64,000 nucleotides of DNA, taken from Minutocellus sp. GHC0000111. Lineage: Eukaryota. The notes beneath the pieces were generated by a model. That model was given only the letters and a program-made list of their open reading frames with translations. It did not search any database and had not been told where the DNA came from. The DNA lies in NCBI GenBank assembly GCA_977018835.1, contig OZ361257.1:2418001-2482000 (forward strand). The letters are read 5' to 3'. Shown piece after piece: positions 14,768-64,000 of the stretch (position 1 is the stretch's first letter; every line of letters starts with the position of its first letter). A program made the position numbers and the translations under genes.

Positions 14768-17700
14768 CCTTTCGAGTTCAGAGGATTTGAAAGTGACGTG
14801 ATTAAGACGTATTAGAAACACGACCACACCAGACCAAAAATCCAAGCTCACTTTTTCTAACTCCGAGGAATAAATGACGGCCAAGATGGAAGTCGGGGCA
14901 AGAACCAAGTTATGGTCACCAACTTCTACATATAGTCGAGAGATATTGTGCACCAGAACCAATAAATGTACATTATGTGATGATTTTTTTCGACATTTGC
15001 ATTCCTCACCCCGGGAAAAAATACATTTTTGGAAGCACCAAATCAAAATGTAATGAATAGAAATGGACATGCTATGATAAGTTATAGCAAATCAATGACT
15101 CCATCGTCTTCATCATTTTCATCTATGTCGTCCTCAATGTCATCATCTTCGCCGGGAGCATCAATTGGCCAGAGTGGTTCACCATCCTCTTCAGCTTCTT
15201 CCTCGGCAATTTTTGCGAGACCAGCCTTTCCCCGTCTGGTCTCCACAAGATTGTTACCGCCACGACTTCTCTTGATGTTGTTATATATCACTGGAAGTTT
15301 TCCAAATACATTGAGAAAGGCCTCTTTTGATGCGACATTGGCCCATACTTTCATCACAGTCTTGTCAAGAGCATTCGCATCATTCTTCTGACCGCGATGC
15401 TCCTTTTCGACGGCCGACTGCAAAGACATCCAGATGCCGAGATCAAGAACATTTGTCTCGGGCGACCGAGGAACCTGCTGGATTATCTCAATCTTATATT
15501 TGTTTTTGAGGTCCTCGGTGTACTTCTCAACTGCTTCATTGGACCCATGACCGCCGGCATTGTCCATCATAAGATGTGTAACATCAGACTCCTGAATATT
15601 TTGTGGATCCCACTTCACCCAATGATGTGCGTCTCGAATCGCCTTCCCGACCTCATTCATAGTCTCCAACATCCATTTGGAGTCGCAGCTACAGTCCTTG
15701 GTAACCTTATCGCCCCGTTGATACCGCACCCCGAGCTCAAGGTCGTCGATCTCAACCTTCACCTTCTCTCCATTGCTATCAGGAGTGTGTCGCTTGAGAC
15801 TCGAGATCTTTTGATTGTAGCCAACAGCGGCATGCTTGCGACTTTTTGCCTGACCGTCGGATTTATAGTCCTCGTGTTGAAGTTCCAATCGCTCTGTAAC
15901 AAACTCAGAAAGGCCGTAGATTTCGGCAATGTGGTCGCAAAGATGGCCGGCGGTCATGTCAGCATTCTCGTCGTAAATGTCGCGCCAATCTTTGTCATTT
16001 TTTAGCGCATCGTTGACCTTAGCATCTGGAGAGAAATTCTGATTACGCGTAAGCTTTTCCACCTTCTGCTCCCTGGCGACTCTCTTGATCATGATGCGCC
16101 CATTGAAATCAACGTCTTTGGTTTCATCCTTCATTGGTCGGCCAACAACTCCAAGATGCATAACTTTGACAGGGTGTCTTCTGGATCGAATTTTCGGGCT
16201 TGCCTCGGAAGCATGGACAGACGCGAGGTTCGGACTGCAGAAAGTGGCAACATCTTGATCTTTCATCAAGATGCGCTGCAGGAATGTTGGGATCGGTCGC
16301 AATGTCCTCCCACTTTTCGATCCAACCAAGTCGCTTCCTGCAATGTTCGGGGGTGAGCCTCGGCTTCTCGATCGACGACTTCTCCTTGCCGCCCCTTGCT
16401 TTTTCCACCAGCGAAAAAGCTAAAGACGATGGAGACTAATTGTCAGCCTATCTTTACCTGGAGTGTAGCAGCTGATTTTGCGCTCATGCAGTCAGCTAGC
16501 TCCTTAAAGGTTGCCATCGCACCCTTCATCCGAGCAGCACACCGATGCAGCTCGCGGAGACATCCTGGCTCCTTCTCCTCGATCATGTCCGTGCATGCCT
16601 TCCTTCCACGAACCTCCTTTCTGCCGATGGGATTGCTGATGCCATCAGTAAGGCTTTTGTAGAGCTGGTCTCTCCACTTGTAAAGCTGAGAACCACCGGT
16701 TGACTTGGCACAACCGTGATCGCACGCAACTTGCCGACACGCGGCAGTTGCAATTTGTTGCCGGTCTTCATGCGTGCGAGTTGGGTCGCCGCATCCCCAC
16801 CAATCCGCGAGAGCCACGGCGCTGAACCGCATTCTTTCATTCGCCTGCTTTTCTTTTCTGATTGGTGTTGGTTCGGTGACGGTTGCATTGGGACGAGGAG
16901 GACGGAGCATGTCATCGTTGGCCATCCGAACAACAAAGTCGAGGCGGAGAGCGACCTTTGCCTGTTCATCAATGTCACTGGAGGTGGCACAGACAACGGA
17001 AGCATCGGCTCCTCCTAAACCTTCATCATTGGGGGAGGCTGCAGCTGCTTCAGTGGCGGAAGTGTCACCAGTTCCCTTCAGCATGCTGAGGAGACTTGCT
17101 GGCATCCAACCCAGTTTCTTGGCCTCGTCGACTAGTGATTTTACTCTTGCTTGCTTCGCAATGCGCTGACTGCACCTCCTTTCTGTGAGCTGACAACCTC
17201 TCACCTAGCTTAGTAGCTAAGACAGTCGAGCGCCCAGAGAACAGAACTTCATCGGGATTTCTTTTCTCGTGCACCTTCTGTCCCTCCGGTCCAGAGAATT
17301 TCGGGTGGTTGTCCTCCTTCTTTTTACGCAACCTGTGAGCACAAACATGAAGCGCCCTGCGTCTTGTCTTCCCTCTCGGCCGACACGTCGACAAGTGCAA
17401 CTTCAAACTGCAATGCTCCTTCCTTGAGATGTTGCTGCATGTCCTTCCATTTTTCCTCGTTGCACTGTAGCTCATACTTTCCTCCCCACCGACGGACTTG
17501 GAACGCAACAAGTCGGCCTCGATGAAAGCAGGGAGGACGTCTTCCCACTTCTGCCGAGAACCAACACAAATGTCATCTTTGCCGCAGGAGTCGGGGGTTG
17601 CTCTCCACCACAGATCCTTACCAGCCCTTCGAATGACATCTGCTGCAAGGAGAAAGGCCATGGGGATAGGAGGAGGGGCCGTCCTCTTCTTCGCCGACGA

Positions 17701-18190
17701 CGGGGTGACGGTTTGGCGCGGGGGCGAGTTTGACCGTGGCCGCTTCTTCGACGTGTTTGCGCTCGGCGATGGTGTTTTCGGCTCAGCTGCCGCCTTTGCC
17801 GCCTTCCTGGATGCCTTGGTGTTGCCTCTCTTGCTCCCTGAGAACGAAGTTCTGCTGCGTTTGTATTTTTTGGGCGTGGTCTGGTTGGTCGTCGTCATCG
17901 TCACAAAATTTGCGGGGGGGTTGCGGTGAGAGGGTGTGCGGGGGACCAAAAAACACATGTGTTCCTGCCAGAATCTACTGGACCTGCGAATTCAGTGGAT
18001 ACTACTGGTCGGTGGCAACCTACTGAATGAGCAGGTCCAGTAGATATCCACGAGTTGAGGAGTATTTGCGTTCCTCCCGAAGAGAACATCGACTAACAAA
18101 ACACGTGGTGGGAGATGAGAAATGGGTGCAAGAATGACCTTTTTTAGGGGTTATTGGTATACCCTCTACAAATCCTCTGAAACCGAAAGG
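14768..18190 (-). mobile_element. Tc1/mariner-type DNA transposon, degenerate
   Basis: 22-bp TIRs CCTTTCG(AG/GT)TTCAGAGGATTTG (20/22); TA at 18191-92 and TG at 14766-67; transposase fragments AHLDE, MDNAGGHG, PRSPETNVLDLGIW in broken frames 15082-17958. Confidence 0.9.
15082..17958 (-). pseudogene. Frameshifted mariner-like DDD transposase
   Basis: Four or more frame pieces (17958-17065, 17204-16443, 16408-16124, 16329-15082); apparent Tyr-to-Cys/His changes (VACDHGCAK, GCLRELHRCA). Confidence 0.85.
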
Positions 18191-20662: not shown

Positions 20663-21154
20663 TTACTTCTTCTTGGCCCAGAGGGGCTTGTCCTCGTCAC
20701 CGGACCAGTCGTACTTGGTCTTGGCCATCATGTGGCCCTTGGTGGCAGACTTGAACCAGTCCTGGCTGACGTCGGTGCCGCGGTCGAGGTAGAACTTGGT
20801 GTAGTCGAGGAACTTGCCGGCCTTGGCGACGTTGCGCTGGTAGTTGGCCTCCTTCTTGGATGCGGCCTCCTTGCGGATCTTGTTGTACTCGTCGGCGGTG
20901 AGGCCGGAGGGGACGTAGGAGCTGCCGGCGGTGATGGTGCCCTGCTTGAGGTTCTTGCGGCCGCGGGCGCCGTAGTCGTTCTGGTCGGCCTTGGGGGCGA
21001 AGAGGTCCATGTCGAAGACACGGGCGGCGATGCGCTTGCCCTTGGGGGCCTCCTTGGCGACGGGGGCGGGAACGGGGGCCTTCTTGCCACCGAAGGGACC
21101 GAAGGCCTCGGTGGAGGCGGCAGCGGCGAGGACGAGAGCGGCAGTGTACTTCAT
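20663..21154 (-). CDS. Small plastid-targeted protein of unknown function
   Basis: Signal peptide with ASAFAP-like cleavage (ASTEA-FGP); strong C/G-ending codon bias typical of highly expressed genes. Confidence 0.85.
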   Translation of the reverse strand: MKYTAALVLAAAASTEAFGPFGGKKAPVPAPVAKEAPKGKRIAARVFDMDLFAPKADQNDYGARGRKNLKQGTITAGSSYVPSGLTADEYNKIRKEAASKKEANYQRNVAKAGKFLDYTKFYLDRGTDVSQDWFKSATKGHMMAKTKYDWSGDEDKPLWAKKK

Positions 21155-22856: not shown

Positions 22857-23311
22857 GGTTGAGAGAGTGGAGAATTTGAATTGTGAACGCGCGCCAGCAT
22901 GTCTCGTGCTTGAAAAATTTGGCGCATTGCGCCACAGGAGCTTTCGGGAAATTTGCGGGATGGCGAAAATCGGCTGAATTTTGCATGATTTAGCGTTGAA
23001 GGACCTCGCAGAAATCGGCACGACTTGCGCACATTCCTTTACGTCGACTTTGCGCAAAATTTACGTAAAATTTACGCCGATTTTATGTTCACTTGACGCC
23101 AATTTTACGCCGACTTTACGCCATCTTTACACGCAAAGCATGCCCCGCGAAAGAGCAAGAACATCACCAAATGTGAGTCATCGCCAACAGCAATGCATCA
23201 TGCACTTCTTGCTTGCTTTCATGCACGTGCACACATGAGCCGGAATCTGCACACACATCCTTGTCCTTGTCCTTCCTTGTCCTTTCTAGTCCATGTTTTG
23301 GTGGGGACACG

Positions 23312-24448
23312 ACTTGAAGACTTTGTTGAACATGGCGATGTGGGTGTCGATGATGGGTCCCCCGTCGTGCTGCTTCTCGAGCTGCTTCTCTAATTCCTCC
23401 TTCTGAGTCTCGTTGAATTTCAAGCAGCGATCGGTGATGCTGTGTCGATGATTTGGCGGATGGTGACTGGCTGGAAACCGAGCATGTCATCTTCGAGATG
23501 ATTGATGTAGACGGCGTCGATCGAGTCGAGGAGGAGATTCTTGAGCGCCGTGTTGACTTGCTCGTGCAAGTTGCAGTGGCCCCCTTTTCGACGTGCAACA
23601 TTGTCTCCCCGGACGTTGCACGATCGCGTTGGTCTAGATTGGCCACGGCGGGAATGGTGGGGCTGGAGCCAGGATTTGCCGGAGGCACATGTGGTCGGCC
23701 GTTACTTTTGGTGGTGTGTTCGGCATCGCTGACGACGAGGCCCAAATGGCCGAGGTTGTGGTCATGTTGCACCCTGCTGGAACACGCTGGCCGCCGCTTG
23801 CTTGTTGAAGCTCCTTGAGCGCTTTGGCAACACGCTCGCGTTGGGGAGGTTGTCCTGGGTCATTCATACGTGTGATTAACTTGGTGGGGAGAATCGGCGC
23901 TGCGCCGAGAGGTTGGCCAAAAACTGCGTCGGGATTCATGCTGGTGTTTCAGTCAGCGAAGACAGAGGCAGCACGGCGGTGTTGCTGCTGCGAGACGTGT
24001 GATCGACAGAAGGCTCGATCCAGAGAAGTGTGATCGATTGGATGGGTCGATCTGGTCAGGACTTTCGGGGAAGGGATTGGATCGTCGTTCCAATATTGTC
24101 GAAAGAAACTGTCGTTTTGGCCGATTGAAGATGTGTCGGTTTTTCTTGCGTGACGAGTGAGAACCCAAGACAAACCGGGGAGAGAGGTGCGAACCGAAAT
24201 GGGGCGAGCACGGGTGGAAAAGATGTGTCACGTAGGTCTGCTAAGAGGTCCTAAAGCTAAGCTAGATAGATATAGCTTGTAGAGGTTAATGGGACCTACG
24301 CAGATGAAAAATGGGCCATCGGAGATGTCGTTGGCCCATGATCGTTGGCCCATGGATCAACGGTCAGGAGAGGGCACTGAGTCAGTGGTCTGATCACCGT
24401 ACGTACCGTACGTACGTATACGTACGTACGTAACCCACGGCATCAACG
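23312..24448 (-). mobile_element. Truncated Ty1/Copia (CoDi-like) copy: 5' LTR 24239-24448, leader and 5' part of gag
   Basis: 23313-24038 aligns with 63303-64000; LTR aligns with 58196-58390. Confidence 0.95.
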
Positions 24449-24449
24449 A

Positions 24450-25050
24450 CCCTGGCTTGAACCGCGACCCTGCTCATGCGGGCTTCTGGTTACAGGCAAC
24501 GCCAGACGCTTAAAAACGATTTTCTCTCTCCTGGTCCTCAACTATCCGTAGAGCATCGTTCCCAACATCGTCTTTGTTCCTGTTCTCCCACTCGATCTGA
24601 AGAGCAGCATTGCAGCAATTGTGGCTAGCTTCTTTTTTGTGCAAAAAAGAGAGGCAAACACACACATGCACCTGCATGAAACAGATGAACAGCATGCAAA
24701 TAAATCGATGCATGTTCGAACTCACAACAATGGACGACTCGGCGCTGATCGCTTTGATCCATTTCCACACCCAATGTCGAAATGTCTTCTCGTCAGGACG
24801 ACTTGGATTGCGGACCTTTTGTCACACACACACATGTCGGATTCGGTCCCATGTGTTTTGAGAAACATGATCGCCCAAAGCATGTGTTCTGGACGTGACT
24901 TCGGCACATCGGCAGCACACCGATCCCAAATGTCGGACATCACTTGAGGGGGCGCAGTGCCATGCGATTGCCGCCATCGTCTCCACTGCTGCTCGGGGTC
25001 GGTCGGTCGGCGGATGCAGAGAGAGAGCGACACTTGCGACCGAGCACTTC
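24450..25050 (-). pseudogene. Harbinger/DDE_Tnp_4-like transposase remnant
   Basis: HMLWAIMFLKTHGTE, PDEKTFRHWVWKWIKAI, IEWENR..DVGND pieces; catalytic core missing. Confidence 0.7.
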
Positions 25051-25618
25051 ATTGCCCCATTGCCACCACGCCTCTGGAGGGAAGAGCGCAGTGGCCGTGG
25101 ATTTGGCATGACCATGTGGCTGTCGTCCTGGCTCGCTCCTCCTTGCTCCTCTTTCCTAGCTCGCTTCTTGCCATCTTGGCCGTCTTTGCCCCGCCTGGGA
25201 GCAACATCGACAAATCGCAATCACGAATGAGCAACCCGGAAAGTGAGTCGCCAAACAAGCCCACGAGCAAGGCCCACGAGCAAGACCGAAGCAAAGTGAC
25301 GCCATTGGCACGCCAAGCCAACGTGCACCCATTCAAACGCCCCCCAAGACCCCAACGCCCAGAATTATCGCCAATGAGTCCCCCGGGGCTCATCGGCGAA
25401 TCGTCACGACTTGAGCGCAGATGCATCGCACCCCAAGTAAAAGCATGCGATGTGGATGATGCCACAATCCAAAGATGCCAGATCAGCAGCTTAAGAGGGC
25501 GCTGTCCATAATTTTCCCCGTTTTTAATCCCCCTTATTCTTATTTCTTATGACGAGCGAAGCATGACAAAAACTCGACCCCACCATGAGAATCGCCGCTC
25601 TGCCCCCTCTTCATTACG

Positions 25619-26952: not shown

Positions 26953-29267
26953 TTACAAGCTGCCATTTTCTCTCAGTATCGCCGGCATCCAAGAGCTAAC
27001 ATCATTTGCCGATACACCGAAGTTTGTCTTAGCTTTCTTATTATTTCTTGCAGATTTCTTGTTGCTGCCTGGGCTTCTGCGCTTCTTTCCGGCGTAAACG
27101 ACAACGTCGTCAGCATCGTCGCATTGACATTCAGCCCGAGTGTGGCCAAGCTGCTTGCATTTCTGACACTGCTGGTCAATCTTCTTCTTGCGGCCAGGCT
27201 TTGCTGGTTTCGCCTTACCAGCAGCTAGGGCCCTGTTCTTCTTGTACACATAGTCCTTGTCGTCTTTCTCGCTTCTGTTTCGCAAGGCTGCTCGAAGGCG
27301 CTTGCTGTCGCTCTTGCTCTTTTTGTACTCATCGGTGCGCTTACGCGCAAGGTCGCCCTCGAGCTTCCGGTCAATTGCATCGAATCCATCTTTTCGGGTA
27401 GGAGAATCCCTCGATCCCAACTTTCCAAGAACTCGCTCATTGAATTCCGTACCCAGTGACTTGTGGCCAGCGGCTCTACTTGTTGCATTTGGGTAGGCGT
27501 CTGAAGCAGTCAAATTCGGCCTTTTCCCCATCGTGAACTTCGTCACCATCCCGTTGAGCTGTTCCGACGCCGGTGGTAGATTCCTTCTTGCAGTTGGAGT
27601 CGGCAGCATTCTTGTTGATTCTCTTGGTTATTTCAAGCGTCATCTTGCGAATCGTGTCGTCACTAATCTCCAATATGTCGCCATCGAATTGATTCCCCGA
27701 GCTCCATTCCTCATCGAGCTTGCCATCACTCCAATCAGGATGAGCAATGCTGAGGCGAATCCAATCACACGTGTTGGTGGTGCAAAAAGTGTGAATGCCA
27801 CATTGGTGACGAACGACGGACTGGAGTTCTTTCTGAAGGAGGGCCAGATGACTTTGTTTTTCCTCCTCGGACACAGCACCATCGGGCTGATCGAGAACGC
27901 TGTGCTTGTACCGATCAGTAATCTTCGAAATGTCCTGTTTCATCCGATTGATGCGTGGTCGGGGGATGGCATAAAAATTTTCAACTCCCAACATTCTCGG
28001 CCAGATGCTCCTCTGCCACACCGGGGGAGTGGGAAGAGTTGCGATAGCAGAAGCCATCATGGTCGTACAGGGCCAGCATCTCATCCTTGCTCATGTTTTT
28101 GAGCTCACTCGGCGTTATTGGATTGCCGGCTTCCCGCCTCTCCCTCAATCTTGCATTGCAGGCTCTCACGCAATGGTGGCAGCTTGCCTGAGAGATTCCC
28201 TTGTCAACAACAAGGCCAGTTTCCTTGTCTACGGCAAATACCGCTGCAGCAGAGCCAGTGTAGCAATGGCCGTAGTCGCGTTTGAGGGCGCTGCCGTCTT
28301 GGGCCACCGTAACCACCGCCGCCGTGTGCATCTCGCCGCCTTGTTCAAACTCAACAGTCTTGCTGCTAGCGGCATGTGCTTTTGCCCTATTCTCGTCAAT
28401 GATTTCATCAGCTGCTTCAACAGCCGCTGCTCTGCATTTCTTTTCCACCTGTCGGGCATTCTTTTCGGTCGGATGGACGATGTCGGCCTTCGTGCAGAAA
28501 TTCATGAAGCGACTTGCGCACATGGCCTCATCTTCCGCTGCCTCCATCAGCTCCAAGCTCATTCCAGCCTGACTTCTAGAATGCTTTCTGCCGGGGCACA
28601 CAACTTCTGACCTCTGGCCGATCCAAGTGCAAAAAGAAAAAGGTTGGTTGCATCTATCGCATCGCCATTCAAATGTAACGCCGAATCCACGCCGAACTGG
28701 CTCGGCCGAGAGATGCAGATTGCCGCACGATCGGTGGAGACTCTGCACGAAATCACACAGCTGCTTCATCTCAACCACAATTCTTTTGCCGTTGAGCTGC
28801 ACGCCGGTGATGTTGGGACGATCGGCAGCGTTGGCGGTGGGAGTAGATGACCGACCGCCCGAAGAATTCTTGTCGGAATAATGTTTCAGCATCGCGTTGA
28901 GATGGGGCCCATGCTTTTCATCGTCCTGGAAGTAATTTTCAGGCATGGTCGGCAGTGATCGCTTGCCATTGCGTTGAGAGCGTGGGCTGGCGTTATCGGC
29001 TATTCTGGAGAAGCGGTAGAAGGGCTTTGCAACGTCAAGGCCTGATATTTTCTCTGGACGTCGTCGTTGGATGTTGACCTCGTGTCGTGTTGGGACGTGT
29101 TGAAGAGATGATCGAACAAGAGAGATCTCTAAGCTCGGCGACACGCCACCGCGCATCAAGATGCGGACAAGCTCATCAATAGTGTAGTAAGTACATCTGA
29201 CGTCGTCTGGGAATGAGAGCAAGAGTGAGAGGATTGCCTCCTTGGCGTTAGCACGTGATGTTTCCAT
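26953..29267 (-). pseudogene. Kolobok DDE transposase, frameshifted and internally deleted
   Basis: VTVAQDGSALKR...TGLVVD...CHHC, CYRN...AEE, SEQLN, C-terminal CQKCKQLGHTRAEC knuckle; three frames, second Asp region absent. Confidence 0.8.
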
Positions 29268-29736
29268 GGTTGTTTTTTTGTTTTGTGTCGGTTCTGGCGC
29301 AAGACACGCTTTTCGATGAGAACCTTACAAAAAGAACCCCAAATGAGGGAGACGTGCAAAAACACCCCAAACAAATATCCCCTTACCTCCCAACAGCAAA
29401 ACTTCAAGATATCTTCCCACCAGCACCACCAATGCTGGTTGTGCGTCGGCCGAGACTAATTTCGGTCGATCCGACAATGATGTGTGCGTCGACTGTTGCA
29501 TTTCTGAGGGAGAAATGATTCATCGAAGTTCCTCTGAACCAAGTGTTCCTGGAGGGATTTCCGACTTAATGCTGAAAGGAACGTCGATGACTCTTCGCCA
29601 CTGTGGAGAGCGGCGGCCTTCGATGAGGAGCCCATTGTCACGTTGGAGTGCTAACTTTGGCGATGGTGCGAAGAAAAAACGGCACAAAACACGCATTTTG
29701 GGGGCTTCCTAAAAGTTATGGACAGCGCCCTCTTAA

Positions 29737-48402: not shown

Positions 48403-49454
48403 TCGACCTTCTCGGCGTACCGCCCCTAGCTAGATTTTGAGACGATATTCCGCTGAAAGTCCCGCAATGTACTACAATAGCTAGAGAGTACCGGTAGATC
48501 TAAACTCTCACCACCTCTTACTAGTATGAGCACAGAGATATGTAGGTATATTATAATACATAGCAAGTTCGACGTCCTTTCCATAGTTGTTTTAAATGTT
48601 AAGAATCTTCCTATAAGTAGAGTCTACGTAAACGTTTATTTTACATGTATAAGTAAAGTCTACGTAAACGTTTATTGAATTGTCATCTATCTTGAAGAGA
48701 TAAGATCAAAAGGTTTGAGGCAATCCACCGTAAAATTTTCATCTTTCTTACTCGTAGTGATATTCAGGGCCACTCCTGTAACTTCGAAATTGCTCGTAGT
48801 ACCCATATTCTCTCCTCGAATGACGGGCTGAGAATCCATGCCCCTCAGAACATCGGCCGGTCTCAAAGTGAGACTTATTTACTTACTTACTTACTTACTT
48901 ACTCACTTGGCTTCCTCCGCTGCTATTTATCAAATGTGATTTGTACATGCCCATTTATAGGTCAAGCGTATTTTAAGTTGATGTACAACATTGACTGGCG
49001 TATCCTTTCGTATTTCCCTTTCAACTATGATGGTGTCGTCACCCTAAGCCTCTTTCGCAACATTTTCTTCATCGACTCGCTCTCATCTATCGTCTCTACC
49101 GGTGCTTTGACATCCCTGAGCATCGTCATCTCTTCCAGATTATAGTGGCAGTGGTACTGATAGCATCGAGTTCTCAGTTTAGCTCTTCGCCCTGACGTCT
49201 TTTCAGCACCGCTGTCAATGCTAGTGCCAGTATTGAACTCCAATCCTACTTCCTCCTCGCGGACCACGTCTGTTGCATCCCTGGCCAGCTTTCTTGCCTT
49301 GGCCATGTCAGCGTCCGCTCTCGTGCGCTCGCTCCATCGTCTTCAGTGCCGTCTCGGCACCTATGTCCGAAGGACTCATCGACTCGACCTTCTCGGCGTA
49401 CCGCGCCTAGCTAGCTATATTTTGAGCGGGTATTCCGCTGAAAGTCCCGCAATG
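48403..49454. repeat. Dispersed direct repeat of about 70 bp (48403-48469 and 49384-49454)
   Basis: tcgaccttctcggcgtaccgc...ctagcta...tattccgctgaaagtcccgcaatg. Confidence 0.9.
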
Positions 49455-53430: not shown

Positions 53431-53500
53431 ACTTGACTCTGTGATACTACGTAGTAGGATCCTATTTCTCGGCAGAAGAGATGGGCCCGGGTGCCCTCTA

Positions 53501-56379
53501 CGAGGTCCGGGACAGCAATTTCGGGGACCCGGTTTTTTGGGTCTTTGGACTTTCCGACACGGCGGTTTGCGCGCACCTTGAAAAACACGCGGCAAAGCAA
53601 GCAAATCAAAACACATCCGTCAACAACCGACCTCCAAGCAATTACCACAAATAGACTGGGCAACTTCTGCCGACTGGCGCTTCAAGAAGCTTCCATACTC
53701 ATGGATACTCCAAAGGGACACATCTTCAGTCCACCGCGTCCACCGAAACGCGCCGAGGCGACTGCATTCAGCCCCTCGCGCCATGAGAAGGAAACTTCCA
53801 ACGAAACGCCGGAACATCCGCGGTATCGAGAGAACAAGGACAACGATGACGAGGAGGACAACCAAGGGGTCCCACCGGCATCGTCAGACCTCACATCTCC
53901 TCGTGTGTTGAAATATCGACGCGAGTACAACGAAGAGGATGGCTTCGCCGCCGAATGAAGGCCGAAGCAATTTTGCAGTTAGGCATGCTATCGTAAACGT
54001 CCTCGGCAGTGTCCCAGATCTGGTCGGTGGAAATGACGGAGGTGCCTACCATTTTTCGTGCCCATTCCGAGTGCCGCCGGCTCATCGCGGGGAACACGCT
54101 CAAGTCAAGGACGTTGGCGTGAGGCATCTGCGGTGCCTGTGGCTGCCACGTCCAGCCTTGCTCAGCACAGAAGTTAGTAACAAATTGCGTGAAGGTTCCG
54201 TCCTCGTGAGGCCCGGCCTGGTCGCCCTGGATAATAACATGGCAATCTTCGTATTGCTTGCCCGGACCGACAAGGTTGAGAATCGCTGGGAAAATAGTCT
54301 CCTTGATTACGAGGAGCAAAGAGCATTTCGGATCCTTTTTGGTGCCTTCGTTCGATCCAGTAACGCAACAATCAACAAGAAACGACTCTCCTTTCCGGCG
54401 AAGAGGTTCCTTTGGTGTCCCATCGGGGTTGGTATTTGGGTGCCGTATTGAACCATCAGGCTGTGATGCTGCTTCGTACTGAGCTCGCTCCGCTATTTTA
54501 GGAGCTTGAGCTCGTACCAGTGGCAGTTTTACAACCTCGCACCCACTCTCAAGAGAACCGTCAAAGACAGCGGCAACAAATGCAATGGCCATGACCTTGT
54601 TGATGTGGCTCCTGTGAAAGGCCGCGTAATCTCGCTTTTTCACGCCGATTTCCTCGCAAGCCTTCGCAAAAGCTCGGAGGACGAGACCCCAGAACCATTT
54701 CTCATCGTAATGCACGAGGAGAACTCGCTTCTTTCCATTCGGTAAATTGCCGTCCGTTTGCGCCTGTCCTTGGCAATTGAATCGGTATTGAGGCCGAGTG
54801 GGATCGGGGTGATGGCCTTGAGAGGCACATTCTTATGCATCATGCCACCAAAAGGCTTCTCACACTGGACATCGCAAAGAGTACCTCCACCGACACCTCG
54901 ACTGACCATAACAAATCCCTTACCCTCAGGCCGATTCATGTTGGGACTGAAGTCGGCAGACACAAGGACATATTCCCCAGTACTGATGGCAGGTCGCATG
55001 TTATCTTCCATTCTCATTGCTTTCTTGCGTTCGGGTGGTGCATCCGTCGGCATCCTGTGCGACCGAAGATGTTCACGCATTTGCACCCTCTGCTCCAAAT
55101 GACGCATCGCCTCCTTCATTTTGTTCCTTTTCTTCTCGGCATCGGCCATGGCCTTTTCATCCTTCCGCTTTTCTCGTTTCAAGGTATCCCTTAGCCCTTT
55201 CAAAGCCTCCTCTGCAGCTTTGTATTGTGCTTCGGCCTCAACCAGCAGCACATCCAAATTCTCCTCGGTCGATCCACCAGAATTGGCGGTGCCGGTAGCA
55301 GAAACACCGACACTGGCAGGATTGCCAGATTCTTCACTGTTGCCGCTTCCATCCACCACCATGGACTCGGTGATGCCCCCAGCTTCGATATTATCATCAC
55401 CAGGACGAGCAGCGATACCAGCATTGTCCTCGACAGTCGGCTCAGGGCTGGCATCGGCGTTATTGGATGACGAATTGCGCCGAGCAATTTGAATTTGAGA
55501 AATCGGCACATCTTGTGCCGGATCAGGACCGGTCTGGCTCGGACAGCACAGCTCCTCCTCTCGGGCTTGCTCCATAACATCCTGCTGTTTCTGAAGTGAG
55601 AGGCCCGCCCATGCCCGGTTCGCTATGGTCTGGATCATCCCAGGAGACTTGCCACGAATCGTAGAGGCATCGATGGTGCCGCTCCGATGGACAAAATAAT
55701 CAAAGCATGGGATGGAGCTGCCGGACCGACGGGAGCGGCGACATGCTGGCGCATCAGCTGCGGTGGCAGCAGTAGTAACAGCCATTTGCATTAATGTGGT
55801 GTTGGATGCAGTATTTTGTGGCAGTAGAGCAACAGTTTGTATGTCGGGTGGGTTGGAAATGAGGAAGGTTTCATTGAGTGGCGGGCGCGCCGGGCGGGTG
55901 ATGATTTTTTTGGCCAGCTCGATTTTGGCGCGGGGTCACCCGGACCGCATGAGATGCGCCATTATGGGGACCATGGAGACCGATATCGGAGCTCAAACCA
56001 TATGGCTACTTGAATCAATGCATTTGGGAGGTGGTGGTGGGGTCGGGAGGTGGAGGAGGTGACCAGTTGTCATCGGAAAAACTGGCAGAAGTCGGGAGGG
56101 GCGATGGATGGGGGGTGAATCGGCCAGACGCTGGCATGGGAAGATGAAATCGACATCTCCGAGTCGGTCCAAGGTCAAGGACCAAACCGTTCTGGAGATG
56201 CCACGCTCATCCCTTGCGTGAAGCGGATGCCGTCGGCACTGCCGTCACCGCCATCTTGAAGACAGGACGATAGCAAATAAATGCTGCTGCTTGCTGCGTG
56301 CGTTTGTGCTGATGATTTTTATGAGATTTTGCCCAAAGACCCGAAAACCGGGTCCCTGAAACTGCTGTCCGCGACCTCG
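53501..56379 (-). mobile_element. Tc1/mariner-type transposon, internally deleted, 2879 bp
   Basis: TA|CGAGGTC...GACCTCG|TA, about 48-bp imperfect TIRs; HYDEKWF, IQGDQAGPH, PQMPHANVLDL (53891-54745); upstream ORF 54640-55791 out of frame. Confidence 0.92.
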
Positions 56380-56624
56380 TAAGACAGACAGTCGTCACCG
56401 CTTGGAGGGTGGGCGCGGCCCATCTAGCAATAAGAGGGTGTGAGTTTTTTTTTTGTTGGCAATAAACTAGGTCGACGAAGAAACACATGTTCCACGCTTA
56501 TTTCCGTCGATTTTGGCGCTGCTTGCTCTCTCTCGTCGTGTTACATCGTAGAAACATCTGCTGCAAAACACAGGCGATGCCAACTTGAACGGCTGTGGCA
56601 GGCAGATCGTGTTTCAGATTTTAG

Positions 56625-58195
56625 AAAGCAAGCCAGCATTCGGAACAAAGATCTCACAAGTGAAGTGAAAGCAAGCCAGCATTCGGAACAAAGATCTCAC
56701 AAGTGGAAGCAGGTACTCCCCGTCGTGGGGAATGTTTGGATTTGACTTTTTGTATTTTAAAAGGGAGTGCTTCAGATTCAATGAGTCACGCGCCAGCACA
56801 TCAAATCGGCCTCATCAAATCCGCAGCATGTCAAAACAACCAGCATGTCAAGCCGCAGCAGCAATCAAACCGCAGCGGCACATCAAACCATACTCACCAC
56901 CCGCAGCATGTCAAAACGTTCAGCGTATCGAACCGCAGCAAATCAATTCTACCCGCATGTCATCAAATGTCAAGAAATCGACCAGCACCACATCAAAACG
57001 CCAAGCACAGACCAGCATGTCTAAAAACGTCCAGCATGTCAAGCCGCAGCAGCAATCACACCACAGCGGCAGCGGCAGCACATCAAACCTCATCAACCGC
57101 GGCAGCACATCAAAACGTCCAGCATGTCAAGCCGCAGCACTAATCAAACCGCCAGCAGCACATCAAACCTCATCAGCCGCGGCAGCACATCAGACCACCC
57201 GCAGCAAATCAAACCTCATCCACCGCGGCAGAAATCTAACCTCACCACCCGCAGCACATTAAAACGTTCAGCACATCTCACAACAGCGGCAGCTGATCAA
57301 ACCGCCAGCAGCGGCAGCGGCAGCGGCAGCACATCAAACCTCATCAACCGCGGCAGCATGTCAAAACCTCCAGCATGTCAAGCCGCAGCACTAATCAAAC
57401 CGCCAGCAGCACATCAAACCTCATCAGCCGCGGCAGCACATCAGACCACCCGCAGCATGTCAAGACGTTCAGCACATCACACTGCAAGTGCAGCACATCA
57501 AATCGTAGAAGCAGCGGCAGCGGCAGTGATCAAACTGCCAGCAGCAAATCAATCTATCCGCGCATCTTGTCACACATGTGTCACCTAAACGACCAGCATG
57601 CCAATGACAGCATTGGGCGCATTGCTTCACTGAAAGCATTCCCCACACACAAGAACATTCAGTTGTCAAAACAGCCTTTCATGTTTCCCAACCATCCTCA
57701 ATCACCTTAACAAATAAGAGTGTGAAAATAGTCCAAAGCAATGGCTCTTCCCCATGATGATTGCCACCCGAAGAAAAAAAGCTTCGTCTTTGCAGCAAAC
57801 CAAACAACAATTTTCACATCACCGCGTTCGGGACGCTGCCTGATTCGTGCATCACATGTTTAAGCACTTTTTTGGTGCCAATAGAAGTGTTTCATTAGTC
57901 TACTTTCTTTTGTTTCTCGTGCTTGCTAAGCACCTCCGACATCGGTTCCGAGTGCTTCGAACATGATTCATCACCGTCAGCGTGTCAACATTTTCAGCAT
58001 TTTTGACATGCTGCTACACCACTCCTCTATGTGAATCTTTAAATTTTTTAAACTAATTGTAACTATTCAAGAGTGCAATCGGATCGGTGCGCCGCCGCAG
58101 CAGCAGCATGTCTTCCAACAACGAACCAGCACGTCAAACGGCCAACCAGCACATCACAAAACGTCCAGCGCATCGCTTCCATTCCACAACCAAAG
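56625..58195. repeat. Degenerate short-motif repeat array (cagcacatcaaa / cagcatgtcaa / ccgcagca) with internal duplications
   Basis: About 140-bp block at about 57066-57207 repeated at about 57317-57457; about 36-bp duplication at 56628-56705. Confidence 0.85.
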
Positions 58196-58442
58196 TGCTA
58201 AGAGGTCCTAAAGCTAAGCTAGATAGATATAGCTAGTAGAGGTTAATAGGACCTACGTAGATGAAAATGGGCCATCGGAGATGTCGTTGGCCCATGGATC
58301 AACGGTCAGGAGAGGGCACTGAGTCAGTGGTCTGATCACCGTACGTACCGTACGTATGTATACGTACGTACGTATCCCACGGCATCAACACACACCCCCT
58401 CGCAGATCAATGACTAGTGCCATTGAATCTTCATGTAGAGTC

Positions 58443-61400
58443 CTAATTGGAATCTACATGTAAGTAGACTGGTCGCATGTCGACATGGTAGCGGGCGGGA
58501 TGGTGCTTTGTAAAATAATCGGCCAAATTTTGCGCTCCTTTCCGCCAGCACACCTGGAATTGTCGTTGCTCTGTGCGATCTTGGACCCAGTAGAATCTCA
58601 TGTCCACAGCCTTAGACCGTCTTTGCTTGACGGTTTTATTGGCGATTCCAGATGCTGTAGAGTTGTCAACGACGATAGCAGTAGGGGGCTGCGGGTGACC
58701 CATTTCTTCTAGTGCTGCCCGGATTGGCACTGCATCTTTCATGTTGAAAAACAATCCTCCCAATTCGGCTTCAGCGGCTGAGGACATTGCATGCTTGATG
58801 ATGTTGGCATTGACGAGGATGGCTCCATTCATTGGTGGCATGGGATCACTTGAGTCAGGCTGGCGGTGCGGGTCCTTAGGTCGGGAGCTTAGGTAGAAGC
58901 ACCCTCCGAGCTTGATTCTTGATTTCGGGGCTGACAAGTGGGAGGCGTCGCTGTGCACATGCAGGATCATGTCTGACTTGACGTGTCGAATGAATGCGTC
59001 GGGATGGGTTGCAAGGCAATCTAGAAGCTTCTTGGCATCTTGTCGAGTGCGCTCGGTAGCTTTGGATTGTTCCGCTGAGATGCTGTTGAGCGCCGGTAAA
59101 ATTGTTGAATCAGTTGCTCGACCACAGTGCAAGGAGCTGCCCACCACCTGTTGAATTTCGTTGATGCCTTTGGCGTCGAGTGGTGGTGAGTCGTCTTCCG
59201 GTTCTGGCAGCTGGGGTCCCGGGCCATGCGTCGGACGATTCCATCGACATGGCGCATGCTCGGGCCGTGAGGGGCGGTCGTGTTGGAACTTGTGGCGCAT
59301 CTCCTTGACGCAGTTAGGCACAGATAGATCCACCCAATTGGCCTCGTAGTTCCACTCGAGTTGAATGCCACAACAAAGTCGGCCTTCCCAATCGGTAGTG
59401 ATCTTATACTTGGAGTTGAGGGCCTGAATGAGATGGTCTGCATGCTCTTTCCCGACACACTTTGCTCCAAAATCGTCAACGGTTAGGCAAAAGGCAATTG
59501 GGCGGGTTTTGTGCCTCCAAAGGCCGGCAGTGCGCTTGCAAGGGAAATAGCCATGGGGTTTGAGATGCTTGACAAGTTGATCGTAGGCTAGGCGCCCTGC
59601 CTGGGGTAATCCATGCATTCCGCCATCGATTCTGACCAACACTCGACCACTCTTTACTTTGTCGTGGAGGTCGTAGGCTTCCATGACTTCGTCGGGGATG
59701 AGAGCTACTGGCGCCCACATCCATTCTGGCTCTGGCATGGTGCTATTGAGATAGAAGTCACTGATGTCAATTCCCATGAAACGAGCGTTGTCTGTAGAGA
59801 TGACGCTGTTGAAAAGTAACTTTGCAGTCAACATTTCAGCGGTCGGGGTCGAGACTGCACCAGGGTAATGAATTTTGTCGCCTCCTGCAGTCCATCGAAC
59901 TCGATTGGGATTTGGTTTATGGGAGCAATAGTCGGCGACAATGCGGAGGCATGTGGCTTTTCCCCCCGAGGCAGTTCGGACCAGTGGACGAAAGCCATTG
60001 TATTGGAGGGAATGCTAGCACTGTTTCCAACTCAAAAGTCCGTTAGCCGTCCAATTTCATCGATGTTTGCTTGAATGAATTGGTCCCTCATGTTCGTTTT
60101 GAGGAGGTCGCGGTATTCAAGCATTGCACCAGCATCGGGATGGACGACGACGTTAGCAAAGTGTTGGAGGTTTGGTAAAGGCGAGAAAGCTGCCATGTTG
60201 GCCACGTGGTGGGCACTGCGACGAGATGATGGCCGTGGGGGAGGGTTCCGATGTGGAATGCACCCTCGCTGACGGTATGATCGTCGTCGAGGTGGTTTGG
60301 CGGTCGATGGTTTGGACTTGCTTGTCGATTTTGCTGGAGCTGGTAATGTTGGAGTGGTGTCGATCGTTGGAGACTTGCGTTTACGTTGCCGACGGGAGGT
60401 GGGGGCATTGGAACTTTGATTGGATGTTACGACGGTTGCATCGTCGTCATGATTATCATCATCGTCGCCGTTGGGCTCGTCTACTGCAGCCAAAGGATTG
60501 TAGTAGTTGGAAGAAACTGACGAGCGAGGTGGCGCGTTGGATCGACGTGATCGACGGCTTTTAGTGGTGGCTGCATCATATGTGGAGGATTTTGCCACCC
60601 TCGGAGGTTGCTGGGGCTGAGGTAACGGAGCGTTGGGGTTGGGGACAAGGTGACGGCCTACTTCAGTCTCGTTCATCTCTTCTACGTCGTCTTCCTCGTA
60701 TTTGATTTTGTAGCACTTGTACTTCTTGTCAAATGCAACGACTCTACCCTTGTAATTGCGATCTCCAAACACTTTGGCGGCGATGGTACCGAGGCGGAAT
60801 CGTTGGGAGTCGTCATCGTTCTCTAGCACCCTCGGAGCTGCGGTTGTCTGCATCGTCTCATCAGAGGCGGAGGTGGCAGATTCTGCTGGGGTCACGCTGT
60901 TGAAAATCTCGGAGAGCTTTTCTAAAGCTTGACGATGCTCGTCTCGAAGGGGAGCAAGGGGTGCCGCTGGATGTGGATTCTGTAGAGCGTGCAGGAGTTC
61001 ATGAGCTGCGACTGTTGCTGCATCGGCCGACGACGTTTTGGGTACCGGAATCATTTTGGGGAGCCAGACGAGTGTGTTACCAGTGCGTTCCGCCCGAGTT
61101 TCCTCAATCCAAACCTTGTAACACCGGTAGTGTTCCATGGCTGGACCGACATAGCACCCATCAATGCCATGCGGGGACCAAGAGCCGCGTGCCGAGGGCA
61201 TCTCGTGAAAGATGACCTTGCATCCGAGGGGGCCGAGAGGCGTGCGATTGAAATCAAAGCCGCCATTGAGTTGCTCGTACGCTGATAGTCGAGGGTTGAC
61301 TCGGGATGCTCTCAGGAAATTGAGGGTCATTACCGCCTGCTCCAGCAATTTATCCCACAAGATGAGGGGAAAGTCGGGATCGGTACCACAGAGAATCGCA

Positions 61401-62623
61401 ATGAAATGATTCTTAAAGGTTCGAATGGCTCGTTCGGCCGCATTTCGGCGGTGGGAGTGCGTTGGGGTCAATTGAAAATCTACATCCTTTTCTTCCATGA
61501 ACTCCTTCAGCTCTCGACTCACTTCATTATCCAATCGTTGCAATTTTGGGCGAAATCCTCGCTTGGAGAGGCATTCGAAAATAGTTTGGTACGCTCGGCG
61601 CATTTCCGTTCCCGATCGGCTTTTCATTGGTTCGGCCAAGATGCTGTTGGAGTCACAGTCACAGACGACCATTATGTACTGGTGGCCAGAAATAGACGAT
61701 ACCAAGAAACGGCCGGGCTAATCTGAGAAGATCTGGCCCGTTATGTCATGACAATCAGCAAAGACATAGTTGGTGCGCTGTTGGTGTTGTGCCGGGTGGA
61801 GATCCTGCTCGGTTTCGTCCACCCCAGGGAGAGATTTTGGCGTAGCCATCGACCGTTTGGGCTTGGTCGACCTGATGTTCTTGCGCTGCTGGTCTAAGTG
61901 ACCTTTAATCATCGGTATCGACTGTGGCATGTGCTTACGTACAAGCTTTGATGTGAGGCCTGGCCAAGATCTATAAAATCCCGCATCGATTGCTTTGCAC
62001 CAGGTAGATAGCTGAGGACTGCCAGCGCACCAATGTAAAAAGGCTACACGTTCCGGAACCGTCTCCTGGGCAATTGCGGCGTTGGCAGCATATTGGATGA
62101 CGTTGGGGCCGGGGAGCGGCGACATGGTGGGCGAGCAATTAAGATCTACCATCCACAATTTCGTTGAGGGGTCTCGTTTACCTTGCAAAATGACGGCATT
62201 GTCCTTGGCGATGACTACCGAATCCTTATCGAAAGTGGCAATGCATCCATCGTCACACAGCTGCCCAATCGATAGGAGCGATGATGCCATGTTATTGAAA
62301 ATATAGGCCTTGCTAGCCGATGGGGAAGCCCCAGGGAGGCGAAGCGTGGCCTCGTGGGTGTTCGTCATTGTGCTATTATCCGGAAGGGTGACGCTGATAG
62401 GAATTGCTGTCTGTTGGACGTTGAAAATAGAGCCATCGCACGATAGGCATTGGGGCTTCTGGACAAAATGTCCCGTCGTTCCAGTGTCTGCGGCGAGGAC
62501 GATTGGCTCTTGAGTTGGAGGTTTGCTTTTTGACGTAAGAAAAGCTAACGAAGGCGGGGAGGAGGTGGATTCAGACATACTATCCTCTATTTTATGCTGA
62601 TTAATATCCACCGTCCCTCCCGC
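58443..62623 (-). pseudogene. pol: Copia pol with nonsense codon (TAG at 61718-20 in SD[Q]PGRF) and frameshifts at about 59840-60040
   Basis: ORF pieces 61718-62611, 60032-61705, 58443-59834. Confidence 0.92.
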
Positions 62624-63906
62624 TCAGTTACGACGCGAGCTACCACCGCAAGGATTGTACTTGGTGGCGTTATCAACGTGGTTGGGCCCTTTGCAAGTGC
62701 ATTCAAAGCTGGGGTGGTTGGACGAATAGCCGCACGTGTGGCAATAATGGCCTCTGGGGAGGATCGACTGCAGTTCCCGCTTCTCCTGGCGGTTGAGGTT
62801 AGGACCTTGGCCTGGGAAGTGGCCGGCGCCGTTCTGCTGGCCACCGCCGCAGTAGCCTCCACTGCCACCAGTATGGTTGCGTCCCTCACGCAGAACGCGG
62901 TTCTCGGCCTTGAGTGAAGCTATTTCTTGGCGAAGTTTGGCAATGGTGTCATCCTTCTCGTTGCTCTTTTTGGCGAGGTTCGCCATCATGGCTTGGTTGG
63001 TCTTGAGGGCTTCGGTGGTGTCAGCCAAAAGGAGATCGGCTCGAGAAAGAAATGGATCGTCCGAGGCCGATGAGGCCAAATTCGCGCCATGATATCCTGC
63101 CGCTTCGGTGGTGGTGTTGGCCATCTTCTTATCATGCCAATCGCGGAAGTCCGACTGCATGTTGGCCCACGTGCAATCGGCCTCCGGACTGTCGTCCCAG
63201 TCCTCGCATGCCTTCTTTGCCAATGAGAACCTGCGCACGGAGCGGTAGAACTTGGAGACCTTTTGCTTGTTGGTGAAGGGTTCGCCGGCCGTTTCAAACG
63301 CCTTGAAGACTTTGTTGAACATGGCGATGTGGGTGTCGATGGGTCCCCCGTCGCACTGCTTCTCGAGCTGCTTCTCTAATTCCTCCTTCTGAGTCTCGTT
63401 GAATTTCAAGCAGCGATCGGTAATGCTGTCGATGATTTGGCGGATGGTGACTGGCTGGAAACCGAGCATGTCATCTTCGAGATGATTGATGTAGACGGCG
63501 TCGATCGAGTCGAGGAGGAGATTCTTGAGCGCCGTGTTGACTTGCTCGTACAAGTTGTAGTGGCCCCCTTTTCGATGTAACATCCCCGGATTGCACGATC
63601 GCGTTGGTCTAGATTGGCCACGGCGGGAATGGTGGGGCTGGGGCCAGGATTTGCCGGAGGCACATGTGGTCGGCCGTTGCTTTTGGTGGTGCATTCGGCA
63701 TCGCTGACGACGAGGCCCAAATGGCCGAGGTTGTGGTCATTGTGCCCTGCTGGAATGCTGGCCGCCGCTTGTTGAAGTTCCTTGAGCGCTTTGGCAACAC
63801 GCTCGCGTTGGGGAGTTTGTCCTGGGTCATTCATGCATGTGATTAACTTGGTGGGGAGAATCGGCGCTGCGCCGAGAGGTTGGCCAAAAACTGCGTCGGG
63901 ATTCAT
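62624..63906 (-). pseudogene. gag: Copia gag, frameshift near 63570
   Basis: GHLGLVVS...P.NPG and Zn knuckle YCHTCGYSSNHPSFEC. Confidence 0.88.
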
Positions 63907-64000
63907 GCTGGTGTTTCAGTCAGCGAAGACAGGCAGCACGGCGGTGTTGCTGCGAGACGTGTGATCGACAGAAGGTTCGATCCAGAGAAGTGTGATCGAT

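What the first reader, a model, noticed from the sequence alone, without database searches (positions are those of the whole stretch)
58443..61700. Conserved tyrosines of Copia Pol systematically replaced by Cys or His
Seen: GGM(H)GLPQAG, DFGAK(C)VG, GRL(C)CGI, GSSL(HC)GRA, LLD(C)LATHP, IR(H)VKSDM, SDAS(H)LS, QV(C)WRKG, VV(C)D(C)DSN. Established: these positions are normally Tyr in Copia RT/RNase H/integrase (GMYGLPQ, VKY, LYY, SDASY, YDYDSN). TAY to TGY (Cys) is sense A>G and TAY to CAY (His) is antisense A>G, so both strands are hit. This argues against RNA editing or RT error. The signature creates no stop codons, so dead elements keep long ORFs. Host genes in the window keep their Tyr (e.g. 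NAA40 VLYVYE).
Basis: partly seen in the sequence, partly recalled or inferred. Interest (0 to 1): 0.85.

Follow-up and report, generated by a model that had tools for sequence, protein, structure and literature searches.

The report
TA-erasing mutator caught in diatom transposons
In what is likely a diatom genome, copies of a jumping gene each carry their own set of T-A steps changed to T-G or C-A on both DNA strands, turning tyrosines into cysteines or histidines, which likely reflects a host defence that mutates mobile DNA and that my searches found in print only for one unrelated alga.

Summary
Real, but partial rather than systematic: about 40% of the tyrosine sites (17 of 43) in this CoDi-type Copia copy read Cys/His. 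The family is young and high-copy, so the process can be polarised. Across 46 sibling proteins, A>G at TAY occurs in 16% of site-by-copy cells against 0.45% at adenines after A or G, equally on both strands; 24 of 50 tyrosine sites show both Cys and His, so hits are independent. Rates rank RTAY > YTAY >> RTAR (13:6:1). A Mutator-like DNA transposon in the window shows the same signature, so reverse transcription is not needed. Host genes and, unexpectedly, the TA-rich LTRs look spared; two decayed Copia families from other samples lack it. Per-copy burden spans 0-75%. Best reading: a host mutator acting on chromosomal transposon bodies, likely an adenine deaminase (enzyme not identified). It matches TpA hypermutation reported in Bigelowiella natans (2026 preprint); I found no diatom report in print. 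The scan noted this signature before in other diatom DNA (73 notes). The copy also has two stops and a frameshift from other mutations.

The parts
58196..58390 (-). 3' LTR (TG...CA ends on the minus strand); TA-rich (22 TA, 10 of them RTAY) and nearly unmutated
   Evidence: repeat with 24239-24447; composition; 0 other letters against a contig of run X14 (table 8)
58443..60014 (-). RT and RNase H frame (in the pol frame from about 59960); Cys/His at 10 of 19 conserved Tyr columns; only 1 of 40 remaining TA is RTAY
   Evidence: Pfam RVT_2 E=1.1e-4, below the curated cut-off; 2719 homologs at E<=1e-30
60032..61717 (-). integrase core, SH3-like part, Tudor-like domain (about 60656-60778), low-complexity linker and RT start; bounded by two premature stops
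   Evidence: homologs named integrase-domain proteins of Phaeodactylum tricornutum and proteins of Fragilaria crotonensis and Attheya; PF21743 E=5.8e-11; Cys at 61663 and 61657 where 15 siblings have Tyr
61718..62623 (-). protease and integrase N-terminal part (protease motif DTG read from the sequence; label from recall)
   Evidence: translation; sibling cover to 62602; no Pfam hit
62624..63736 (-). gag-like frame (label by position); leader continues to the window end, 5' LTR lies outside the window
   Evidence: 94% match to 23309-24038
23309..24447 (-). truncated sibling copy: gag start, leader and 5' LTR (24239-24447); gag/leader differs from the main copy at 7 of 11 TA-derived sites, LTR at 2 of 21
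26956..29324 (-). Mutator-like DNA transposase copy of a 170-member cluster with the same TAY signature
   Evidence: PF20700 E=2.5e-14
15082..16419 (-). probable DDE-type transposase relic (label from recalled motifs, no Pfam hit); His at 2 of 5 conserved Tyr columns, near-identical siblings differ mainly at TA

Best explanation
Copies of mobile elements in this likely diatom genome accumulate A:T>G:C transitions at TAY (hottest in RTAY) on both strands, each copy with its own set, and the cause is likely a host enzyme that deaminates adenine in chromosomal DNA of silenced transposon bodies after insertion. Shown: direction, sequence context, strand symmetry, independence among copies, action on both a retrotransposon and a DNA transposon, strong copy-to-copy differences in burden. 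Inferred: that hits arise in the chromosome after insertion (star-like family, no shared non-TA variants); that targeting follows silencing or repeat status and skips genes and LTRs; that the chemistry is A to inosine read as G at replication by a TadA/ADAT-type deaminase; that the effect is defensive (it strips essential Tyr without making stops). I put about 0.9 on a repeat-targeted TAY mutator and about 0.55 on adenine deamination as its chemistry.
For: Polarity: of the 40 listed rows, 19 have window C/G where family contigs mostly read T/A; 17 of these lie in TpA (P<=1.2e-10), all 17 in TAY. 46 sibling proteins: A>G at TAY 61/81 sites, 167/1039 cells; TAR 14/981; after A or G 48/10772; CpG C>T 28/4587. 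Both Cys and His at 24 of 50 Tyr sites. Strands 15.5% versus 17.0%. Context rates RTAY 0.47, YTAY 0.22, RTAR 0.036. Mutator-like family: TAY 21/41 sites, 54/341 cells against 8/476 sites, 8/4050 cells; its more distant relative P0138 has Tyr at 16 of 18 listed sites. All 29 minority variants shared by 3 or more siblings are TA-type changes (my reading), so no subfamily structure explains sharing. Burden overdispersed: 149 against 41.8+-9.0 in permutations, p=0.0005. Host spared: silent R-T|AY keeps T in 88/217 host against 8/77 transposon sites, p=4e-7; RTAY observed/expected 0.93 host frames, 0.89 other non-coding, 0.33 transposon-like bodies. Negative control: two decayed Copia families from other samples, TAY 4/1150 and 1/339 against other adenines 52/11193 and 23/4923. 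TadA acts on UACG and evolved TadA prefers TA (PMC12265680, passages). Same TpA spectrum arises de novo in chromosomal DNA of B. natans.
Against: No enzyme was identified: no genome is held for this window. Sequence cannot tell a lesion on the A of TAY from one on the T of RTA. AA contexts are slightly raised over GA (AAY 15/2316 versus GAY 5/3241), a faint WA trend. The silent-site test without the AY/AR split was not significant (132/429 versus 42/179, p=0.077), and intact RT relatives also have low T at R-T|AY (44/254), though not specific to that class. One host carrier has His where two solved relatives have Tyr. No pair of LTRs of one copy is in the window, so post-insertion timing is inferred. 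His at GGM(H) in 15 of 17 copies may mean that a hit copy kept multiplying, which weakens 'defence'. Burden does not track other private changes (rho 0.02) but counts are 0-7 per copy, so age versus bursts is open. Most counts come from protein sequences, limited to clusters at >=90% identity; cells are not independent events.
Confidence: 0.6

Rival explanations
1. A base mark comes first and mutation follows, as 5mC does in RIP: N6-methyladenine laid on TAY/RTAY and then deaminated, or an oxidised thymine (5-hydroxymethyl- or 5-formyluracil) at RTA that mispairs with G. Chemistry recalled, not from a call.
For: The hottest context, RTAY, is a palindrome and each adenine in it is hit about twice as often as in YTAY, as a double-strand-reading enzyme would give. 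Diatom transposons are islands of DNA methylation (PMC9998398, passages), and unmarked LTRs would explain sparing.
Against: TAC is hit as much as TAT and ApT without a 5' T is cold, so the ApT-type adenine methylation recalled for other microbial eukaryotes is not the mark. No TAY mark is known to me in diatoms; PMC9998398 has no occurrence of '6mA' or 'adenine'.
Confidence: 0.17
2. Error-prone patch synthesis (polymerase-eta type) during repair of methylated, heterochromatic repeats makes A>G at WA motifs.
For: Pol eta mutates WA hotspots during non-canonical mismatch repair (PMC7884765, passages); AAY exceeds GAY about fourfold; CpG C>T changes that could trigger repair are present (28/4587).
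Against: TAY is about 25 times AAY (16.1% versus 0.65%), the 3' pyrimidine rule is strict (11-fold over TAR), and Tyr sites go almost only to Cys or His, not to transversion products.
Confidence: 0.13
3. Editing happens during transposition (RNA, cDNA or excised DNA), or hit copies are re-mobilised in trans, so new insertions arrive already mutated with intact LTRs.
For: Would explain spared LTRs, uneven burden and near-fixed His at 59615; B. natans-like timing is not shown here.
Against: Equal strands, same signature in a Mutator-like DNA transposon, no nested sharing of variants. An earlier scan note reports LTR pairs differing only at TpA in another genome (e1-7617450; unchecked lead).
Confidence: 0.06
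4. Ordinary decay under general TpA avoidance or GC-biased gene conversion.
For: TpA is low everywhere in this window (host frames 0.36-0.76 of expected), and overall TpA in the Copia frames (0.38-0.72) does not stand out.
Against: Conversion bias has no TAY rule; non-TA A>G is 0.45% against 16%; decayed control families show no TAY excess; the measured diatom spectrum is biased GC to AT (PMC6604790, passages).
Confidence: 0.03
5. Sequencing or assembly errors at modified bases.
For: The platform of the window and sibling assemblies is not known to me.
Against: Contigs of two Illumina RNA runs from different studies carry TA>CA/TG alleles (for example 62444, 62579), and window alleles such as C at 59374 occur at 20-31% depth share in two other runs.
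Confidence: 0.01

Closest known systems
TpA hypermutation of integrated NCLDV and virophage DNA in Bigelowiella natans (Mettrop et al., bioRxiv 10.64898/2026.01.13.699255)
   Same: A>G and T>C on TpA only, both strands, chromosomal, confined to foreign or mobile DNA, uneven between lineages; authors propose an ADAT2-like deaminase and note TpA-poor RT and DDE genes.
   Different: Rhizarian, not stramenopile; shown there de novo in single-copy viral inserts, here as polymorphism among copies of high-copy class I and class II transposons; the main text gives no 3' or 5' flank rule ('trinucleotide' 0, 'diatom' 0 occurrences) and nothing on LTRs; its supplementary mutation table could not be seen and may show the flanks.
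Repeat-induced point mutation (RIP) of ascomycete fungi
   Same: Context-specific transitions on both strands of chromosomal repeats that disable transposons (described in passing in the preprint; details recalled).
   Different: RIP is C>T, mostly CpA>TpA, makes stops and lowers GC; this is the exact reverse, makes no stops and raises GC. Dependence on homology or sex is untested here.
ADAR / APOBEC hypermutation of retroviruses and retroelements
   Same: Deaminase-type transitions in a short motif with heavy copy-to-copy variation; ADAR favours U before A.
   Different: Those act on RNA or one cDNA strand and give a one-strand bias; here strands are equal and DNA transposons are hit.
CoDi Ty1/Copia elements of diatoms (PMC2806351)
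   Same: LTR with TG/CA ends, PR-IN-RT-RH order, closest named homologs from diatoms.
   Different: CoDi group not assigned; this family carries a Tudor-like domain after integrase; related elements elsewhere keep their Tyr.

Membership tests
Ty1/Copia (CoDi) LTR retrotransposon | LTR with TG...CA ends | tested here: met
   58196-58390, repeated at 24239-24447
Ty1/Copia (CoDi) LTR retrotransposon | pol order PR-IN-RT-RH | tested here: met
   translation; RVT_2; integrase homologs; protease label from a recalled motif
Ty1/Copia (CoDi) LTR retrotransposon | two LTRs and target-site duplication | not testable with these tools
   5' LTR lies beyond base 64000; no genome held
Ty1/Copia (CoDi) LTR retrotransposon | placement in a CoDi group by RT tree | not tested
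   no group-labelled reference sequences were fetched
B. natans-type TpA hypermutation | A>G / T>C restricted to TpA on both strands | tested here: met
B. natans-type TpA hypermutation | confined to foreign or mobile DNA | tested here: met
   (composition only, one window; unsplit test not significant)
B. natans-type TpA hypermutation | intermittent activity | tested here: inconclusive
   burden overdispersed but age not excluded
B. natans-type TpA hypermutation | de novo rate about 1000-fold above background | not testable with these tools
   needs mutation-accumulation lines; here 36-fold per cell over adenines after A or G
RIP | C>T transitions (CpA>TpA) | tested here: not met
   direction is TA loss
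RIP | triggered by sequence duplication, premeiotic, RID-dependent | not testable with these tools
   all elements examined are multi-copy; no genome or life-cycle data
ADAR/APOBEC retroelement editing | one-strand bias | tested here: not met
   101/651 versus 66/388; Cys 109 versus His 92 at RTAY Tyr sites
ADAR/APOBEC retroelement editing | limited to elements with an RNA stage | tested here: not met
   Mutator-like family hit at the same rate
Polymerase-eta WA mutagenesis | AA as well as TA is a hotspot | tested here: not met
   AAY 0.65%, AAR 0.26%, TAY 16.1%

The most novel reading that the evidence does not exclude
Some diatoms run a 'reverse RIP': a natural DNA adenine deaminase with an (R)TAY footprint that is recruited to silenced transposon bodies of both classes, fires in bursts on individual copies, leaves LTR promoters and genes alone, and shares an origin with the B. 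natans system, making it a SAR-wide mutational genome defence that is present in some lineages and absent in others.
Probability: 0.4. Interest if true: 0.9.

Novelty: new variant of a known kind. Interest (0 to 1): 0.7.

Why it matters
It would be a second SAR lineage with targeted adenine mutagenesis and the first case on ordinary transposon families, with a footprint (RTAY > YTAY >> RTAR) sharp enough to screen candidate enzymes. A natural DNA adenine deaminase is of direct interest to base editing. Practically, it distorts transposon dating in diatoms (bodies diverge far faster than LTRs) and leaves long Cys/His-rich frames that gene callers keep as hypothetical proteins. This window is useful because the family is only partly eroded, so direction, independence and context can be read from living variation instead of from composition.

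Tried and rejected
No whole genome is held, so no enzyme search and no genome-wide count. One search lists only 40 of 168 variant rows, so a complete DNA-level spectrum, including silent sites, is missing. An LTR pattern found nothing in prokaryote genomes; the RT alignment found no relative in viral contigs; the metagenome scan gave no copy of this family, best 63% identity. Plain TpA observed/expected does not separate this element from host genes. The silent-site test without flank split was not significant. Atlas search with a mitochondrial carrier did not name the host; a small plastid-type protein did. Site 59513 looked like a Tyr site (1 Tyr, 16 His) but is not a Tyr column in distant homologs and was dropped. 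ApT-type methylation, one-strand RNA/cDNA editing, GC-biased conversion and sequencing error were considered and rejected as above; a UV TpA photoproduct was set aside from recall because it mainly gives transversions. No earlier scan notes exist for this genome.
Full report
Setting. The window is gene-dense, intron-poor eukaryotic DNA. A small plastid-type protein at 20666-21154 has its three best Atlas clusters commonest in Bacillariophyta (a lead with low recognition score), and the element's integrase has named homologs in Phaeodactylum tricornutum, Fragilaria crotonensis and Attheya, so the host is likely a diatom; runs that hold the element are labelled sponge or marine metagenome or coded organisms. 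No genome is held. The finding lies in a minus-strand Ty1/Copia element: 3' LTR 58196-58390, RT/RNase H, integrase, protease, gag to 63736, 5' LTR off the window. A truncated sibling with a 5' LTR lies at 23309-24447. Pol is broken by stops at 61718-61720 and 60032-60034 and a frameshift near 59957-60014.

Observation. All quoted motifs are present. In RT/RNase H, 9 of 18 Tyr columns conserved at >=80% in 118 distant homologs are changed, 8 to Cys/His, against 24 of 194 other columns; integrase 2 of 6 against 11 of 117. Of the 118 RT homologs 105 have no Cys/His at 22 Tyr columns, 11 have one, one has two, one has four. The window has 10 of 19; 79 of 80 metagenome loci have at most one. The loss is partial: 17 of 43 family Tyr sites in 58443-61700, 20 of 50 over the covered element (59615 and 59513 dropped first).

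Direction at DNA level. Contigs of four runs laid on 58190-64000 show a high-copy family. Of 40 listed rows (128 more were not shown), 19 have window C or G where the contigs mostly read T or A; 17 are TpA>CpA/TpG (binomial P<=1.2e-10 under a generous null) and all 17 have the adenine in TAY (P=4e-4 to 5e-6). Changes by kind are strand-balanced in run X1 (A>G 28, T>C 31, C>T 30, G>A 27, 12 transversions). Two Illumina RNA runs from different studies carry TA>CA/TG alleles at other sites, which excludes a platform artefact.

Sibling copies. I used 46 proteins: all members of four clusters (6, 8, 14, 3) and 15 of 113 of a fifth; recurring contig lengths suggest one assembly (inference). None shares the window's private changes (for example 23 of 23 differ at 59114). 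Taking window codons as reference over 1370 codons, the amino acid expected from an A>G transition appears at TAY in 61 of 81 sites and 167 of 1039 cells (16.1%), at TAR 14/981, after A or G 48/10772 (0.45%), after C 112/5614 (many are the other outcome of a TA that the window has lost; inference), and CpG C>T 28/4587. Sense 101/651, antisense 66/388. At 24 of 50 Tyr sites both Cys and His occur, which needs independent hits on opposite strands; all 29 other minority variants shared by 3 or more copies are TA-type by my reading, so the family is star-like and sharing is recurrence. Burden per copy runs from 0 to 75% in 38 copies with 8 or more sites and does not follow other private changes (rho 0.02, weak power); it is overdispersed (149 versus 41.8+-9.0, p=0.0005). 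Against a simple story: His at GGM(H) is in 14 of 16 siblings and the window, with one Tyr and one Cys, so either an extreme hot site or a hit inherited from the master copy. About half of the window's private amino-acid changes are not TA-type.

Footprint. From Tyr codons of the Copia and Mutator families, relative rates per adenine are RTAY 0.47, YTAY 0.22, RTAR 0.036; Tyr survives in 68 of 197 cells after a purine and 192 of 262 after a pyrimidine in the smaller set. Only 1 of 40 TA left in the window's RT/RNase H is RTAY, against 266 of 763 in 15 related RT regions. AAY is 0.65% and GAY 0.15%.

Not tied to reverse transcription. The Mutator-like element at 26956-29324 (17 proteins: 15 of a 170-member cluster and two more) shows TAY 21/41 sites, 54/341 cells against 8/476 sites, 8/4050 cells; the more distant P0138 has Tyr at 16 of 18 listed sites. 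A probable DDE relic at 15082-16419 shows the same kind of change in a few short siblings.

What is spared. Host genes: RTAY observed/expected 0.93 in host frames and 0.89 in other non-coding DNA against 0.33 in transposon-like bodies; silent R-T|AY keeps T in 88/217 host against 8/77 transposon sites. Caveats: the unsplit test gave p=0.077; intact RT relatives are at 44/254; NAA40 keeps 4 of 6 aligned human Tyr with none to Cys/His, the ADP/ATP carrier keeps 7 of 9 Tyr shared by two solved relatives with one His (counts read by eye). LTRs: 22 TA in 194 bases, 10 RTAY, yet the two in-window LTRs differ at 2 of 21 TA sites while the adjacent gag/leader differs at 7 of 11 (p=0.003); the 3' LTR has 0 other letters against a contig of run X14 whose internal contigs differ at 70 of 3787 (P=0.027 by length alone). 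Two LTRs and one contig are thin evidence. Other hosts: two decayed families among the metagenome loci (26 and 11 copies after dropping L051, L056, L064; five near-identical pairs remained; host unknown) have TAY transitions 4/1150 and 1/339, no higher than other adenines, so decay alone does not give the signature and it is not universal among hosts of these elements.

Mechanism. Shown: A:T>G:C at TAY, both strands, independent per copy, in both transposon classes. Inferred: action on chromosomal copies, guided by silencing or repeat status. Diatom transposons are CG-methylated islands (PMC9998398, passages), a plausible guide. Adenine deamination is the simplest chemistry: E. coli TadA edits UACG and evolved TadA prefers TA (PMC12265680, passages), and the B. 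natans authors propose ADAT2. A mark-then-mutate route or a lesion on the T of RTA cannot be excluded; polymerase eta fits poorly because AA is cold. The measured diatom baseline is biased GC to AT (PMC6604790, passages), the opposite way.

Prior art. bioRxiv 10.64898/2026.01.13.699255 (read: parts 1-3 of 5, abstract to conclusion, plus term search; supplements not seen) reports the same TpA spectrum in viral inserts of B. natans and does not mention diatoms. Searches listed no paper on this in diatoms (listings and abstract starts only; subscription journals are mostly missing). PMC2806351 (passages) defines CoDi; PMC7884765 (passages) gives the WA hotspot. RIP details, ApT adenine methylation, oxidised thymine and the protease and DDE motif labels are recalled. 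The scan has 73 notes with these words on other DNA, two on the TAY rule (looked up after I had found it) and one on LTR pairs; these are unchecked AI notes, not support.

Verdict. A real feature: a new host lineage and target class for a process described once in print, here caught part-way so that direction, independence, footprint and LTR sparing can be read directly. New variant of a known kind; interest 0.7.

Noticed in passing
window 60656-60778 (-): A PTM/DIR17-like Tudor domain (PF21743, E=5.8e-11) sits just after the integrase core, where some LTR elements carry a chromodomain; also on sibling P0157, absent from the Pfam lists of the distant homologs. May steer integration by reading histone marks.
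   Followed up: no
window 58196-58390 and 24239-24447: LTRs are strongly RTAY-rich (about 3 times expected, with CGTACGTA repeats) and almost unmutated although RTAY is the hottest target.
   Followed up: partly
window 60824 and 61720: Two window-specific C>T changes both in CAGC context, one making a stop; possible non-CG methylation decay.
   Followed up: no
window 60034-60037: Four adjacent bases differ from the family as one block, creating a stop.
   Followed up: no
window 59615: His in the RT motif that is Tyr in 117 of 118 homologs is near-fixed in the family (15 of 17 copies); a similar His bias at 59228 shares the context G-TAT-GG.
   Followed up: partly
window 56790-57552: Degenerate GCAGC-rich tandem array, very low TpA (0.21) and high TpG/CpA (1.88); possibly an older eroded repeat.
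   Followed up: no
window 24448-25500 and 16400-18000: Unassigned stretches with TpA at 0.16-0.35 of expected; no RTAY left in 24448-25500: likely older, fully eroded relics.
   Followed up: no
window 53891-55935 (-); 53499-53548 and 56333-56381: Second probable DDE-type transposase relic (label recalled, no Pfam hit), bracketed by a 50-base inverted repeat.
   Followed up: no
window 48403-49454: A 1-kb AT-rich segment with 71-base direct repeats at its ends keeps normal TpA (0.98): a possible unhit insert.
   Followed up: no
L003, L042 and related loci: Two multi-copy decayed Copia families in a few metagenome samples lose Tyr to stops and random residues, with no TAY excess.
   Followed up: yes
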